Source of the DNA: Patellaria atrata CBS 101060
Taxonomy: Eukaryota
Direction: 5' to 3'
DNA: 64,000 nt
NCBI GenBank assembly: GCA_010093705.1
Contig: MU006097.1
Span: 197,905 to 261,904 of the forward strand
Of this stretch, positions 3,730 through 8,359 are shown piece after piece (position 1 is the first letter of the stretch; each line of letters opens with the position of its first letter). The notes under the pieces are model-generated. The model was not told where the DNA came from and did no database searches. It worked only from the letters and a program-made list of their open reading frames with translations. A program made the position numbers and the translations under genes.

Positions 3730-5395
3730 CTAGAAGAGCTTGTGCTCAAGGGTCATGTCCGATTCTGGCTCAAGACCAACGCAAGCACGGAAGATGTTAG
3801 TGAGAGCGTTACGCTGCTTGGCAAGAGCATTGACGACTGGGGTACCGGAGGGGGTAAGGGGTGCTTTGAGCATATAGCTCAGGACACTGAGGACACTGTG
3901 GAAATTACCGTAATCGGTATTCTCCTCTTCGGACTCAGACTTCCATTGGATACGAGTCATCATCTCAGCGACGACAACAAGATCAATGATCAGAGGCGAT
4001 GCCAAAAGAGAATCCTCGCAGATGTTGAACAAGCTGATAGTCTGATGACCACCCATAAAGATCTCAGCATAGTACTCATCTAGAGCACGCTTGTTGTCAC
4101 CAACTGCGGGCATGTACTTGATGACAACCGTGTGATCTGGATGCTCGCCTTCCTTGTAAAGGACGGTGTTGGCTGCGACCATGTCGTCGACGACGTTGGA
4201 CTTGGAAATCTCCTTGGAGCGGAACTGCTTCTGCGAGCTCAAGTTCATGCCATCGTTGTTACCAAGATGGTTGTAGCTCGCAATCGAGGTGAGTTTGATA
4301 CCAGCGTTGATGAGGAAGTCCACGAGAGCGGACTTCATCTTGGTCTGACCAGACTTGAAATCGTCTCCGCCAACGAATGCTCCATGCTTCTCAGCGAGCT
4401 GGATAGCGCCGGGGACGAATGTATTCTGAGGAGAACCGTTGATGAAAGGAACCTTGTCCAGAATACATGCTACGGCGAAAACAGTTGAGGGAGAAACCTC
4501 TTCATGGCCCTCCTCAATGGACTTGAGAAGATTATCAGCAGTGTCGTTGACGCCCTCGATGATGTCAGCGTAACGCTCAGTGTTAGCGGTCCACTGGACA
4601 ATGACTTTGTCGAGCCCATTGTTCTCCTTGAACTCCCTAATAATGGTGTCAGTAACTGATAATGAACTTTTTGGAGAGGAAGGATTACCGAATATCCTTG
4701 CGGATCTGTTCAACGTGAGCCATGGAAGCCTTAGATCCAGGGATCAAATTGTCCGCACGACCCTCCTGATTGGCGGCAATGAAGTCTGGATAGTAGATAC
4801 TGGGAAGTGGGACCATGGAGGCCATCTCCTTCCTAACCTGATACTTCAGAGTGGGATCCAAGACAGCAGCCCTGTCCATAGCTTCAGCAAGGTTCATCTT
4901 GGAGATATCCCAACCGCCAACGACGAGATCATTTGGATGGACCATAGGAAGGAGGTCGTGGAAAGGTATGTTGATCTCTTTTCCGGTCTTTGAATCAGTA
5001 CCGAGCTTGACTGTTGAGCTCATGACTACGGAGCCATAATAGTTGGAAGCACATTCGCCCTCACGAGTTTCCCACTTGAGCCCGCGGCGGTTAGCCATGA
5101 TACCAGCTGTGACAGTGGTACCATTGTTTCCACCCCAGCCAATAAGCATGACGCCGACCTTGGGCACTTTACGGTTCACCTTGAAGTTGTAGATTGTTTC
5201 CTTTGGCGTGGCGGTATACTTGCCATTACCATCCTTAGTTACGGATGTAGTACGATAAGTGTACTTGCTCCTGATCTCCTCGTCGGTGTAGGTCACATTT
5301 GGAGAGTTGACAATGAAGAGATCATTGTTGGATGAGGTGCTTGCAACACCGTTCCCGTTCGCATAGCCGACGCTATCGTTTGCGTGAGGTGCCAT
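3730..5395 (-). CDS. INO1: Myo-inositol-1-phosphate synthase
   Basis: ATG 5395 (MAPHAND); hallmark motifs [37 protein letters not shown]-terminal LEHKLF; one 52-nt intron 4637-4688 joins the two ORF-track pieces in frame. Confidence 0.98.
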
Positions 5396-5441
5396 ATTGA
5401 GATGTGGTTGAAGTTTTGCGTTTACGTTAGGCGGCAACGAT

Positions 5442-5628
5442 TTATTTTACGTATTTCGGCCCCGATGCTCCTCCTGAAGGGGAAGTGCGTCGGCCTGCGA
5501 ACGGGTGGTGCACACTGAAAAAACACATGTTAGACTTGATCACGGAATTGGCCAATTGATATAGGAATTGCATGGAGGTCGCTTATATGAGAAGTGTACA
5601 CGTACGAGTTCAAGAGATTGGAAAACGT
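5442..5628 (-). CDS. Candidate near-cognate (ACG)-initiated spliced uORF in the INO1 leader, 31 aa
   Basis: GTCAAG-ACG-T start context; exon 5628-5606 + exon 5514-5442 = 96 nt, open, ending TAA; intron 5515-5605 has GTACGT...CTAAC...TTTCAG. Confidence 0.6.
5515..5605 (-). other. 5' leader intron of INO1 (91 nt)
   Basis: GTACGT donor, TCTAAC branch site, T-tract and CAG acceptor between the TATA box and the INO1 ATG. Confidence 0.85.
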
Positions 5629-5781
5629 CTTGACAACGGGGCAATGGCCCTGGTAGAACTGTTCAGAGGTGGATTTGAAATTGCCTTGTGTGTTGAGCTG
5701 AGTCCTGTCAGAAGAATCGTCTGTCAAAGTTTGTTGTTGAAGTTTTTCGGGGGTGCGAGGGGGGCAGAGGGGGGCATGTGA

Positions 5782-5789
5782 TATTTATA
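5782..5789 (-). promoter_or_regulatory. TATA box of INO1
   Basis: TATAAATA on minus strand followed by a C-rich tract and a CAA-rich start region. Confidence 0.65.
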
Positions 5790-8359
5790 CTCACGAAGTG
5801 CCCCTCCGTCCTTCCTACACAAAAAGATAAGGGGTAATTTACCAAAGATCCGCCGCAACCCGCAACTAACTATCACAGTAGTGTTTGCGAGGCCAGTCAC
5901 CGCTTCTCTGCATCTCAAGGAGCTAGAGCATAGCGTAGAGAAAGTAAATGGAGCCAACACAGTCGTTGGATGCGTTCCAGCTCCATGTACGCGCCTTCTC
6001 GAACCCCCCTACCCCTCCTACCCCACTGTTCATGCCGGGTATCGACATGACATCCACCATAACTTATGTCAAAACACTCCGTAGACACCTAAGGATAGCA
6101 AATCTAAGATGGTGTATGGTAGACTCACATGGACGATTGTGCAATTGTCGACTATGCGGGGTGTTGATAAGCTTGCAGCCTCCACTTGTTCTCGTCTCCT
6201 GAATGATATGATATTGAGGAGATGGTCTGAGGATGACAACTTTTTCTGTCATAGTTTCAGCATTGTAATCCTTGTGCTCGATTTTCCACCACACTATTTC
6301 TTCCCGGGCACGATTAGTTGGCGTTTGTCGAACCTTAGATACCATGGTGAAGTCCTCAAGTCCCAGGCGTAGTGTCCCGTGGGTTGTTCAATCTATTCCT
6401 GCTAGATTGTGTGTGAAGTGCTGTACAGTACGTGGGTACCTAAAGCTCGGCGTCGATCGGCTGCAAAATCCCTAGTAAAATCCTTTTCGACGTGTCTTTG
6501 CGACTGGGTACTTGTGCAGCTAGAAGGTCTTGAAGAGAGTCGAGAACTATGATATGATCTATCGCACATGGGGATAGTGATAGCTTTTTACGTAACTATG
6601 GTTCTCTACGAGTCGGCCCTTTCGTTGCTCTTTCTCTAGTTTTCAACAGCAAAATTGCCTCTCCATGTTGGCCACCAAGACTTCGTGATACACCATCGGT
6701 CCCGGATCGGACCGCAGATGTCGTATACCGAAAAAAGGGTTCAGCGTTTCACAATGCACTCCAGTTTGCAGCATGCACGTAGACCCTGAAGAAGTGAAGA
6801 TGGGGTCTGTTGACTGTAAAAGAATATCATCATAACATAGTTCTCACTGTCACTATGGTGACCATCTCACAAATGATGTTTGGAAAGGAGGGAAGCCTTG
6901 GAGCAAGATCTCACATGATACGAGTTGTACAGTACTCTTGCATTTCTGAAAAGTACGGAGTATCAGAAGTTCAGAACAGCTTCACCAATCATAACAATGC
7001 AACTCGACAAATGATGGCTACAGATTGTTCAAATAATTTGAGTAGTTTGCTAGCTTGATCCCGGATGTCCGTCGGTATTTTTAATTATTTTGAACATAAT
7101 TAAGGGCGGCACGACTGCTTTGACCTTATGAAGTTGTGGCTTCTTGAACTTCCCAAAGCGGCGATAGATCATCAGGGACATCGCGTAAATAATTGGGTGG
7201 CATATCGAATCGAATGCCGAGAGGAACGTTATGTCGTTATTGGCCGCCCATGACTCTCATTTTGCTAATCGCCCTCCAAACCTCAAGTTAGGGCATCATA
7301 CTGGTGGTACCTTAGGTAGGCGTTCTTTTAGGCTCTCTGCCGTGCGCGGTATCCCCTATTCTTCCACTTTGGTACGCTACACCAATTGTCAACAGGATGA
7401 GAGCTACGAAATAGCGACGTAAGAGATCTCTAAAGTCAGGTATAGAAAAAAACCCTGTGTCTCTTGATGTTGTTGTGGTGTAACGGCTAGAGTAGTGAAC
7501 TGTTCCCTGTCGTATCTGTATACTCCACACTTGATACTTCGCCTGTGTTTCAGAGGCCTGCAGAAATTGTAGAATATACCATCGGTCTTTAGCTGCAAAG
7601 AGCCAAAGTGGCATCGAGGAGAAGCCACAAGTCTGTGCACAAACTGAGAACGGTCTGAAGGATGATCAAAGATCTTGTCTAGATATACCCAAGAGGAGGT
7701 TAAGGGCCTAGCGAATCCCTCGTTGACCCTTTTGGGGGCCCTGGCATGGCGGATGGATGGTGATAACAGAGCTGATCTCCTGCTAGACTGATGGGGCCAA
7801 CTTCAGGACTGTGTGCCTTTGTATCGTCTTTCGAAGCACGACATCTACGCATTTCCCTGCTCTTTACCCTGGGAAATCGAAGACGCTGAATGTTGATGAA
7901 CTTCATGTTCGGCGTTCTCATCGCAGCTTGTTGATCTTCATTATTCCTTTTCGAGAAGCTCACACAGCTGTTCCAATCACATAATTGCGCGTTTTTCTTT
8001 GTCTTCCGTATGGTCAGGGGCCGATACAGACAAGCCAGTCATTTCGCAAGTCGGCTCGGTCAGCCATACACCGCACCCCTCAGTCTTAAGGGACGAGCAA
8101 ACCAAACATCGAGCGCCTAACACTTCCGTTGTCACAAGGTGTGATCCTTTTGTTAAGGCATCAAGTTGTTGGTTCTTGTCGATTAGAACCAACATCGCAG
8201 TCTCTTACACATCTTGGAAATCTGTTACCGTGAGCTCATGCAACGCGACGACGGACATATGAAAGAATACAGATCCCCTACTTTGTGGCGTGTAATCGAA
8301 CAATTGTGACGGAGGACGGACTTCGAGCTGGTATATTCCAAGACCAGAAGGAAAAAATC

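What the first reader, a model, noticed from the sequence alone, without database searches (positions are those of the whole stretch)
5442..5628. Spliced ACG-initiated uORF in the INO1 leader: candidate inositol-responsive translational control peptide
Seen: after removing the 91-nt leader intron (5515-5605), the INO1 leader downstream of the likely start region has no AUG. It does have an ACG in a typical fungal initiation context (GTCAAG ACG T) opening a 31-codon frame, MFSNLLNS|VHHPFAGRRTSPSGGASGPKYVK*, that crosses the splice junction and stops 46 nt before the INO1 AUG. The frame is also open upstream to a TTG at 5727. The ORF track misses the spliced peptide. Established: INO1 is the committed step of inositol synthesis and is inositol-repressed in fungi, and fungal metabolite-sensing uORF peptides exist (arginine attenuator peptide of arg-2/CPA1). 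Inference: this is a nascent peptide that stalls ribosomes in response to inositol or a derived lipid, with the weak start allowing leaky scanning when inositol is scarce. I have an unverified recollection that a non-AUG upstream coding region was noted for fungal inositol synthase mRNAs, so check the literature before claiming novelty.
Basis: partly seen in the sequence, partly recalled or inferred. Interest (0 to 1): 0.9.

Follow-up and report, generated by a model that had tools for sequence, protein, structure and literature searches.

The report
Conserved ACG-start uORF before INO1
A tiny coding region that starts at a non-standard ACG codon and is split by an intron sits in the leader of a fungal inositol-synthesis gene, is conserved as a peptide across many related fungi, and probably throttles translation of that gene.

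Summary
INO1 (Pfam PF07994) lies on the minus strand. Its leader has a canonical 91-nt intron (5605-5515). After splicing, an ACG (5628-5626; A at -3) opens a 31-codon frame that stops 46 nt before the INO1 AUG.

In the window alone this is not beyond chance. The comparative evidence is decisive:
- The same split uORF occurs in 73 of 80 INO1 upstream regions examined. Five of the seven misses are truncated contigs.
- It evolves under amino-acid-level purifying selection in this frame only (dN/dS about 0.21; other frames above 1).
- It keeps 31-32 codons and the same phase-2 intron site.
- Its start codon is ACG in 58, ATG in 14 and CTG in 1. Every ATG has a weak -3 T and every ACG or CTG has -3 A.
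- Spliced leaders are almost AUG-free (1 ATG seen, 90 expected), while the introns are not.
- Five intronless transcript-like contigs join the exons at the predicted junction.
- A covarying hairpin lies 7-17 nt upstream of the start.

It is therefore a real non-AUG conserved-peptide uORF. Its response to inositol is untested. Ten literature searches found no description of it.

The parts
5782..5789 (-). TATA-like box of the INO1 promoter
   Evidence: Read directly from the sequence. Its function and a transcription start roughly 30-60 nt downstream are inferred. Transcript-like contigs of relatives extend 86-217 nt upstream of the uORF start.
5639..5650 (-). Short hairpin (4-bp G+C stem, 4-nt loop) ending 10 nt before the ACG
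   Evidence: Predicted, but not significant on its own in the window (z -0.2). This short form is kept nearly unchanged in the window's clade. Other clades carry 6-10 bp stems of different sequence at the same place: 37 distinct stems among 56 sequences. On the model-fitted alignment, 85.7% of cells pair against 23-49% when the partner is slid, 7 of 9 pairs change on both sides, and 0 of 500 shuffles reach this. The window-type short hairpin falls in gap columns of that alignment.
5629..5638 (-). Spacer and initiation context (A at -3 = 5631)
   Evidence: A at -3 in 58 of 58 ACG versions and in the one CTG version; T at -3 in 14 of 14 ATG versions.
5626..5628 (-). ACG start codon of the uORF
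   Evidence: The same codon is ACG in 58 relatives, ATG in 14 and CTG in 1. This needs 4 changes on the INO1 tree. Four unique ATG versions (five loci: L045, L056, L059, L061, L071) have TGA directly upstream in frame.
5606..5628 (-). uORF exon 1 (23 nt, codons 1-7 plus two bases of codon 8)
   Evidence: Conserved DNA block 1. The codon wobble pattern is visible. dN/dS for codons 2-17 is 0.12.
5515..5605 (-). Leader intron, 91 nt, phase 2 within codon 8
   Evidence: Canonical splice signals. It is not conserved in sequence. An intron sits at the same site in 49 of 49 unique genomic versions, 52-467 nt long. It is absent from 5 transcript-like contigs, which join the exons exactly here. Introns are rich in ATG: 114 seen, 67 expected.
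5442..5514 (-). uORF exon 2 (third base of codon 8 to codon 31, plus TAA stop at 5444-5442)
   Evidence: Conserved DNA block 2. Peptide alignment. dN/dS for codons 18-33 is 0.31. The stop is TAA in 49 of 54 unique versions.
5396..5441 (-). AUG-free spacer between the uORF stop and the INO1 start (46 nt)
   Evidence: The spacer is 31-202 nt in relatives. Only 1 ATG is seen in 8,724 nt of spliced leader from the uORF start to the main ATG, against 90 expected.
3730..5395 (-). INO1 coding region (exon 1 5395-4689, intron 4688-4637, exon 2 4636-3730)
   Evidence: Searches give 537 aa after splicing. Pfam PF07994 at E 1.6e-63 on exon 1.

Best explanation
The spliced INO1 leader carries a translated conserved-peptide uORF of 31 codons. 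Initiation is at ACG, presumably decoded as Met by initiator tRNA. Selection keeps the start deliberately inefficient. Most scanning 43S complexes pass the ACG and reach the INO1 AUG through an AUG-free leader, and a minority translate the uORF.

Because the peptide sequence itself is under selection, the uORF most likely acts in cis. The nascent peptide would slow or arrest its ribosome, either during elongation or at the TAA stop. That ribosome would block the scanning complexes behind it. It could also queue them over the weak start, raising uORF initiation further and so lowering INO1 translation. The upstream hairpin and the invariant intron site, 23 nt after the start, probably tune start-site use.

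The most plausible signal is the pathway's end product, inositol or a derivative, giving feedback on the committed enzyme.

Shown here:
- the uORF exists;
- it is constrained at the peptide level in this frame;
- the start codon is identified and is kept weak;
- the leader avoids AUG;
- relatives are spliced at the predicted junction.

Inferred: translation in this organism, cis repression, stalling, queuing, and the identity of the signal.

My odds:
- translated and peptide-selected uORF: about 0.95;
- cis regulator of INO1 translation: about 0.8;
- peptide-dependent stalling: about 0.6;
- signal is inositol-related: about 0.4.

The confidence figure given for this explanation (0.6) is for the cis-acting, peptide-dependent reading as a whole, without the identity of the signal.
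For: 1. Conservation maps onto the uORF. BLAST of the leader against 80 INO1 loci from metagenomes (70-81% identical in exon 1) hits only two intervals, window 5661-5589 and 5533-5440. These are the two uORF exons; the intron does not match.

2. The complete split uORF is present in 73 of 80 upstream regions (72 loci plus the window). Five misses have 203 nt or less of upstream sequence. One (L044) shows exon 2 only. One (L040) has a decayed relic.

3. The constraint is on the peptide. Codon-position entropy is 23.5, 19.2 and 40.4 bits for positions 1, 2 and 3. In 27 nearest-neighbour pairs, pN/pS is 0.26 and dN/dS 0.21, with a binomial p of 3.6e-39 for a synonymous excess. The two other frames give pN/pS of 1.68 and 1.87. 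No conserved RNA fold lies inside the uORF.

4. The start is identified. The same codon is ACG, ATG or CTG in different relatives. In-frame stops lie close upstream in many versions.

5. The start is kept weak. All 59 ACG or CTG versions have A at -3. All 14 ATG versions have T at -3 and T at +4.

6. The leader avoids AUG and the intron does not. Spliced leaders have 1 ATG against 90 expected. The 120 nt upstream of the start have 5 against 57. Introns have 114 against 67.

7. Splicing is seen in relatives. Five contigs of about 2 kb lack all CDS introns and the leader intron. L017 differs from its genomic relative L050 by the predicted 175-nt intron.

8. Length is held at 31-32 codons in 53 of 54 unique versions.

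9. A covarying hairpin sits upstream of the start.

10. Precedents exist. In Pezizomycotina cpc-1, a conserved ACG initiates translation in N. crassa extracts (passages). Queuing behind a slowed ribosome raises use of non-AUG starts (Kearse 2019 passages citing Ivanov 2018). A stalled uORF ribosome can act as a roadblock, as in the plant GGP non-canonical uORF (review passages).
Against: - There is no direct evidence of translation, stalling or any inositol response, here or in relatives. No RNA run exists for this organism.
- The most conserved part is the N-terminal half (codons 2-17, dN/dS 0.12). The last five or six residues vary most. Classic arrest peptides usually depend on residues near the C terminus.
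- One genomic relative (L040) has lost the uORF, so it is dispensable in at least one lineage or gene copy.
- The link between start codon and context rests on only 2-3 independent contrasts (sign test p 0.5).
- The codon alignment was built from a frame-0 peptide alignment, which may slightly favour frame 0. Codons 2-17 have no gaps, so this part is unaffected.
- Only the best 80 of 442 related stretches were available, and they carry no taxon names. The phylogenetic range is therefore unknown.
- A weak start is also what a bicistronic mRNA encoding a trans-acting micropeptide would need.
Confidence: 0.6

Rival explanations
1. The mRNA is bicistronic. The 31-residue peptide is a functional micropeptide that acts in trans, for instance on the INO1 enzyme or on lipid metabolism. 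The weak start only shares ribosomes between the two cistrons.
For: Peptide-level selection fits a trans-acting product equally well. Conservation is strongest at the N terminus, which is unusual for arrest peptides. A conserved Met-Phe or Met-Tyr N terminus is a typical substrate for N-terminal acetylation; this point is recalled knowledge, not tested here.
Against: The peptide has no Pfam family (0 families for 5 peptides). By inspection it is short, rich in Gly, Ser and Ala, and has no hydrophobic segment. The co-conserved features (AUG-free leader, hairpin, fixed length) point to control of scanning.
Confidence: 0.15
2. It is a cis-acting uORF that reports the general stringency or capacity of initiation (eIF1/eIF5 balance, eIF2-alpha phosphorylation, ER or nutrient stress), not an inositol-related metabolite. 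Alternatively it is a constitutive damper that also marks the mRNA for nonsense-mediated decay.
For: Use of near-cognate starts depends on start-codon stringency (introduction passages of Ivanov 2017). In Cryptococcus neoformans, INO1 mRNA rises in a upf1 deletion mutant (passages). That fits an NMD-sensitive INO1 mRNA, though it is another phylum and no uORF is mentioned.
Against: A pure ribosome trap or NMD tag does not need a conserved peptide. The measured dN/dS is 0.21, and 0.12 in the first half. Length is also conserved.
Confidence: 0.15
3. The conserved blocks are non-coding DNA or RNA elements, such as transcription-factor sites, a structured RNA or splicing enhancers. The open frame would then be incidental.
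For: An inverted repeat lies just upstream, and its strand cannot be assigned: sense scores better in 22 cases and antisense in 22. Exon ends next to an intron can carry splicing signals.
Against: Substitutions are concentrated at third codon positions in one frame only. The stop codon and the length are conserved. ATG or CTG replaces ACG at the exact start. RNAalifold finds no consensus structure in the uORF. Rfam gives no match reaching a family threshold in 5300-5900.
Confidence: 0.03

Closest known systems
Plant GDP-L-galactose phosphorylase (GGP) non-canonical uORF (Laing et al. 2015, as described in review PMC10069634; passages read)
   Same: A conserved-peptide uORF with a non-AUG start lies in the leader of the enzyme that controls flux through a biosynthetic pathway. 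The end product represses main-ORF translation through ribosome stalling, and the effect is lost when the uORF is mutated. That the GGP start codon is ACG is my recollection; it is not in the passages I read.
   Different: It is in plants and its peptide is 60-65 residues against 31-32 here. The pathway is ascorbate rather than inositol. No sequence relationship could be tested. The element here is split by an intron and preceded by a hairpin.
Fungal arginine attenuator peptide uORF of arg-2/CPA1 (Wang and Sachs 1997; Wei et al. 2012; seen only as citations, details recalled)
   Same: It is a conserved-peptide uORF in ascomycete leaders of a biosynthetic gene. Its start is leaky, and the nascent peptide stalls the ribosome in response to the pathway's end product, which blocks scanning ribosomes.
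   Different: AAP starts at AUG, has about 24 codons (recalled), sits before a different gene and senses arginine. The peptide here could not be compared with AAP by any tool, because no AAP sequence was at hand.
Non-AUG upstream conserved coding region of ODC/AZIN1 mRNAs (Ivanov et al. 2008 and 2018; reference entries, and the mechanism as summarised in Kearse 2019 passages)
   Same: A near-cognate start in good context is conserved over long evolutionary distances. A paused ribosome inside the uORF queues scanning complexes over the weak start, raising uORF translation and repressing the main ORF.
   Different: That element senses polyamines, and its Pro-Pro-Trp pause motif (recalled) is absent here: none of the 54 aligned peptides contains Trp. 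The genes and the lengths differ.
Conserved ACG start (NCC8) in Pezizomycotina cpc-1 (Ivanov et al. 2017, PMC5487733; passages read)
   Same: An ACG start is conserved in 98 of 100 Pezizomycotina species and was shown to initiate in N. crassa extracts. This shows that such codons are used in this group of fungi.
   Different: There the ACG makes an N-terminally extended protein. It does not open a separate uORF.
Saccharomyces cerevisiae inositol regulon (UAS-INO with Ino2/Ino4/Opi1) and the INO2 uORF (Eiznhamer et al. 2001; reference entry only)
   Same: Same pathway and the same target gene, INO1. A uORF is already known within the regulon.
   Different: The yeast control of INO1 is transcriptional, and the known uORF is in the regulator gene INO2, not in INO1. 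The CATGTG core of the yeast element (motif recalled) is not enriched in 50 promoters of the fungal loci studied here: 14 seen, 14.5 expected.

Membership tests
Conserved-peptide uORF (CPuORF) | ORF lies wholly in the 5' leader, ends before the main ORF and is not in frame with it | tested here: met
   The stop is 46 nt before the INO1 AUG and the frame differs. The spacer is 31-202 nt in 73 relatives.
Conserved-peptide uORF (CPuORF) | Amino-acid-level purifying selection among orthologous leaders | tested here: met
   dN/dS is 0.21 in frame 0 against 1.78 and 1.98 in the other frames. 27 independent nearest-neighbour pairs, p 3.6e-39.
Conserved-peptide uORF (CPuORF) | Direct evidence of translation (footprints or peptide) | not testable with these tools
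   No RNA or ribosome-profiling data are available. The evidence is indirect only: start-codon swaps and AUG avoidance.
Conserved-peptide uORF (CPuORF) | Peptide-sequence-dependent repression of the main ORF in cis | not testable with these tools
   Needs reporter or toeprint experiments.
Non-AUG uCC of ODC/AZIN1 type | Conserved near-cognate start in strong context | tested here: met
   ACG with A at -3 in 58 of 58 versions, and CTG with A at -3 in 1.
Non-AUG uCC of ODC/AZIN1 type | Pro-Pro-Trp pause motif near the C terminus (feature recalled), upstream of an ODC homologue | tested here: not met
   None of the 54 aligned peptides contains Trp. The main ORF is inositol-phosphate synthase.
Arginine attenuator peptide (arg-2/CPA1) | Located in the leader of the small subunit of arginine-specific carbamoyl-phosphate synthetase | tested here: not met
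   The main ORF matches PF07994, myo-inositol-1-phosphate synthase.
Arginine attenuator peptide (arg-2/CPA1) | Sequence similarity to the AAP consensus | not tested
Yeast-type UAS-INO transcriptional control of INO1 | CATGTG-core elements enriched in the INO1 promoter (motif recalled) | tested here: not met
   14 occurrences in 29,631 nt of 50 promoters against about 14.5 expected. The window has two.
Known RNA families (Rfam 15) | Match reaching a family's gathering score in the leader | tested here: not met
   Only two sub-threshold plus-strand matches (E 0.6) in 5300-5900.

The most novel reading that the evidence does not exclude
Filamentous ascomycetes sense inositol, or an inositol-derived phosphate or lipid, inside the ribosome. 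The 31-residue nascent peptide arrests its own ribosome when the metabolite is abundant. The uORF spans 93-96 nt, about three ribosome lengths, so scanning complexes queue back onto the weak ACG. This switches INO1 translation off through positive feedback. The hairpin would re-form behind the scanning complex. An exon-junction complex, deposited over the start codon because the junction lies 23 nt downstream, would set the basal use of the ACG. On this reading, translational feedback takes the place of the yeast Opi1-Ino2/Ino4 transcriptional circuit in these fungi.
Probability: 0.25. Interest if true: 0.9.

Novelty: new member of a known kind. Interest (0 to 1): 0.78.

Why it matters
INO1 is the textbook example of metabolite-regulated transcription in budding yeast. 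How filamentous ascomycetes control the same committed step is poorly understood.

A deeply conserved non-AUG peptide-coding uORF in the INO1 leader gives a concrete, directly testable candidate for that control. It would add one of very few fungal conserved-peptide uORFs beyond the arginine attenuator peptide.

Several features make it a compact natural system for studying how start-site strength is set:
- the trade-off between start codon and context (ACG with A at -3, ATG with T at -3);
- the fixed length;
- the invariant intron site;
- the upstream hairpin.

There is also a practical point. Gene models and ORF finders miss the element because it is spliced and lacks an AUG.

Tried and rejected
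- Whole genome of the window: not held.
- RNA evidence: no RNA holder is listed. The two runs that hold the stretch are DNA contigs and show no joints.
- Earlier notes of this scan: none for this genome. A word search returned only two unrelated notes on prokaryotic ino1 leaders.
- Peptide binding to the INO1 protein (complex prediction): no verdict.
- Assigning the upstream inverted repeat to the sense RNA strand by G-U versus A-C asymmetry: inconclusive, with sense better in 22, antisense better in 22 and 12 equal.
- MAFFT alignment of the hairpin region (A1): too inconsistent for pair counts, so I replaced it with a covariance-model alignment.
- Conserved RNA structure inside the uORF: none by RNAalifold, and mean fold z is -0.48.
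- Rfam: nothing reaches a family threshold.
- Pfam on five peptides: no family.
I did not pursue it.
- Independent-contrast test of ATG start against -3 T: all contrasts agree, but there are only 2-3, so it has no statistical power.
- Yeast-type CATGTG promoter motif: not enriched.
- Taxon labels for the related loci: none are available.
- Ivanov et al. 2008: not held.
- Rejected idea, an N-terminal extension of the uORF from the upstream TTG: in-frame stops lie within 20 codons in 18 of 54 versions.
- Rejected idea, an N-terminally extended INO1 isoform: the uORF is in a different frame and ends in a conserved stop codon.

Full report
**1. What is in the window**

The gene on the minus strand from 5395 to 3730 encodes a 537-residue protein once a 52-nt intron (4688-4637) is removed. 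Its first exon matches Pfam PF07994, myo-inositol-1-phosphate synthase, at E 1.6e-63. It is therefore INO1.

Upstream lie these features:
- a TATA-like box at 5789-5782;
- a 91-nt interval, 5605-5515, with a GTACGT donor, a CTAAC branch site and a CAG acceptor;
- an ACG at 5628-5626, preceded by GTCAAG and followed by T.

Removing the intron gives a 31-codon frame that crosses the junction in phase 2. It stops at a TAA (5444-5442), 46 nt before the INO1 AUG, and is in a different frame from INO1.

The spliced leader has no ATG between 5777 and the INO1 start. The ATGs at 5573 and 5528 are intronic.

Taken alone, none of this is beyond chance. By my arithmetic, a 31-codon open stretch has a probability of roughly 0.23.

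**2. Relatives**

No genome is held for the window. The only public runs that hold the stretch are DNA. I therefore scanned metagenome contigs with INO1 exon 1. Of 442 related stretches, the best 80 were returned. They are 70-81% identical to the query and carry no taxon names.

BLAST of the window's leader against these loci matched only two intervals, window 5661-5589 and 5533-5440. These are the two putative uORF exons. The intron and the rest of the leader did not align.

**3. The uORF is conserved as a coding sequence**

A scripted search looked for a start codon, 23 nt of exon 1, a GT...AG intron and exon 2. It recovered the complete uORF in 73 of 80 upstream regions: 79 loci with upstream sequence plus the window. 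The seven misses are as follows:
- Five have 203 nt or less of upstream sequence (L008, L030, L057, L064, L072).
- L044 shows exon 2 but ends 445 nt upstream.
- L040 has only a decayed, intronless relic.

There are 54 different nucleotide versions and 44 different peptides. Length is 31 codons in 31 versions, 32 in 22 and 28 in 1. The stop is TAA in 49, TAG in 3 and TGA in 2.

Variation is concentrated at third codon positions. Summed entropy is 23.5, 19.2 and 40.4 bits for positions 1, 2 and 3.

On 27 nearest-neighbour pairs, each sequence used once, the Nei-Gojobori counts give:

| Frame or region | pN/pS | dN/dS |
|---|---|---|
| uORF frame, all codons | 0.26 | 0.21 |
| Frame +1 | 1.68 | 1.78 |
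| Frame +2 | 1.87 | 1.98 |
| uORF frame, codons 2-17 | 0.15 | 0.12 |
| uORF frame, codons 18-33 | 0.38 | 0.31 |

The synonymous excess in the uORF frame has a binomial p of 3.6e-39. Codons 2-17 include a short F-S-N-L-L-N-S stretch and an H-H-P-F stretch, and they are the most constrained part.

RNAalifold finds no shared structure within the uORF. Rfam has no match reaching a family threshold. The conservation is therefore at the peptide level.

**4. The start codon**

At the aligned first codon, 58 of the 73 have ACG, 14 have ATG and 1 has CTG. On an INO1 exon-1 tree this needs four changes: three independent ACG-to-ATG changes and one to CTG.

Four unique ATG versions (five loci: L045, L056, L059, L061, L071) have TGA immediately upstream in frame. 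Overall, 18 of 54 versions have an in-frame stop within 20 codons upstream. One ACG version has it only four codons upstream. The ORF therefore begins at this codon, and the upstream extension to the TTG at 5727 is not conserved.

Every ACG or CTG version has A at -3. Every ATG version has T at -3. All have T at +4. This looks like compensation that keeps initiation inefficient. However, it rests on only 2-3 independent contrasts, and the sign test has no power.

**5. The leader is built for scanning**

ATG counts in the 54 unique versions:

| Region | Length examined | ATG seen | ATG expected |
|---|---|---|---|
| Spliced leader, uORF start to INO1 AUG | 8,724 nt | 1 | 90 |
| 120 nt upstream of the uORF start | 6,303 nt | 5 | 57 |
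| Leader introns | 5,624 nt | 114 | 67 |

This shows two things. The intron is removed before the leader is read, and AUGs are selected against throughout the mature leader.

**6. Splicing in relatives**

Five contigs (L017, L042, L055, L068, L079) are 1.9-2.3 kb long. They lack every CDS intron and join the two uORF exons exactly at the predicted junction. L017 differs from its genomic relative L050 by the predicted 175-nt intron. I read these contigs as transcripts. They extend 86-217 nt upstream of the uORF start and include the hairpin region.

All 49 unique genomic versions have an intron at the same phase-2 site, 52-467 nt long. The 54 genomic loci with a complete CDS all keep it. Three of them (L038, L063, L065) have lost all CDS introns.

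**7. Hairpin**

A hairpin is predicted 7-17 nt upstream of the start codon in almost all versions. There are 37 distinct stems among 56 sequences.

I built a covariance model on 16 sequences and aligned 55 matches to it. On that alignment:
- 85.7% of cells pair, against 23-49% when the partner is slid;
- 7 of 9 pairs change on both sides;
- 0 of 500 shuffles reach the observed values.

There are three caveats. The alignment is fitted to the model. The window's own short 4-bp hairpin (5650-5639) is not significant by itself (z -0.2) and falls in gap columns. The strand cannot be assigned, since sense and antisense each score better in 22 cases.

**8. Mechanism**

The data show a translated-type uORF with a start that is deliberately weak, in an AUG-free leader. 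A sequence-independent ribosome trap would not need a conserved peptide.

The best-supported reading is therefore cis regulation by the nascent peptide. A slowed or arrested uORF ribosome blocks the complexes that leak past the ACG. It may also queue them over the ACG, raising uORF initiation. This is the mechanism described for non-AUG starts (Kearse 2019 passages citing Ivanov 2018) and for stalled-uORF roadblocks (review passages).

Two geometric points are my own inference and are untested:
- The uORF spans 93-96 nt, about three ribosome lengths.
- The exon junction lies 23 nt after the start. An exon-junction complex would then sit over the start codon.

I have no evidence that the signal is inositol-related beyond the logic of feedback on the committed enzyme, so I put inositol or a derivative at about 0.4.

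One further point fits regulation different from yeast, though it is weak evidence. The yeast CATGTG-core promoter element (recalled motif) is not enriched in 50 promoters: 14 seen, 14.5 expected.

Arguments against a classic arrest peptide:
- The C-terminal five or six residues are the least conserved.
- One lineage (L040) has lost the element.

Rivals are a trans-acting micropeptide, a sensor of general initiation stringency or an NMD tag, and a non-coding element. The last is nearly excluded.

**9. Literature**

Ten full-text searches found no paper that links a uORF to fungal INO1.
- Ivanov et al. 2017 describes conserved non-AUG starts in Pezizomycotina cpc-1. It does not mention inositol in the main text or in the 10 held supplement files.
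- The known uORF of the yeast inositol regulon is in INO2 (reference entry).
- A 2026 preprint reports INO1 mRNA up in a Cryptococcus upf1 mutant and does not mention a uORF in that context (passages).
- Most subscription journals are not held, and bioRxiv supplements are closed. Prior description cannot be excluded.

**10. Verdict**

It is a new family of non-AUG conserved-peptide uORF, split by an intron, in the INO1 leader of a broad set of related fungi. The proposed inositol-dependent stalling is plausible but untested.

Noticed in passing
L040:1-2001 (upstream of its INO1 start): This is a genomic INO1 copy on a 50-kb contig. It has no introns in the CDS or the leader. Its only trace of uORF exon 1 is decayed: the start codon is changed to a non-near-cognate codon, there is a 3-nt deletion, and exon 2 is not recognisable. 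On the tree it nests inside a clade that has the uORF. It therefore looks like a secondary loss, possibly a retro-copied gene.
   Followed up: partly
window 5515-5605 and the leader introns of L001-L080: The leader intron is kept at the same phase-2 site in all 49 unique genomic versions. This includes three loci (L038, L063, L065) that have lost every CDS intron. The junction is always 23 nt after the first base of the start codon, so an exon-junction complex would sit over the start codon. That last step is inference only.
   Followed up: partly
window 5442-5628 (spliced length): uORF length is held at 31-32 codons in 53 of 54 versions, even though indels occur at two alignment columns. From start codon to stop is 93-96 nt, roughly three ribosome footprints. 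This would suit queuing of scanning complexes back onto the weak start.
   Followed up: no
L009-L012, L016, L019, L026, L028, L031, L045, L056, L059, L061, L071: Fourteen loci in three clades start the uORF with ATG. All have T at -3 and T at +4, and five have TGA directly before the ATG. Standard ORF finders would still miss these versions because of the intron.
   Followed up: yes
window 5524-5529, 5779-5774 and 6131-6126 (minus strand): CATGTG, the core of the yeast inositol/choline-responsive element (recalled), occurs in the leader intron. It also occurs twice within 600 nt upstream of the uORF. Across 50 related promoters the motif is at chance level (14 seen, 14.5 expected).
   Followed up: yes
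window 5572-5781 (+ strand): A 69-codon ATG ORF lies on the opposite strand and overlaps uORF exon 1 and the hairpin. Nothing suggests it is a gene. Conservation follows the minus-strand frame, and the blocks are joined by minus-strand splicing.
   Followed up: partly
L044 and L072 (sister contigs): L044 has a recognisable uORF exon 2 with an acceptor site, but no exon 1 within the 445 nt available. Its leader intron may be longer than 300 nt, or exon 1 may have diverged.
   Followed up: no
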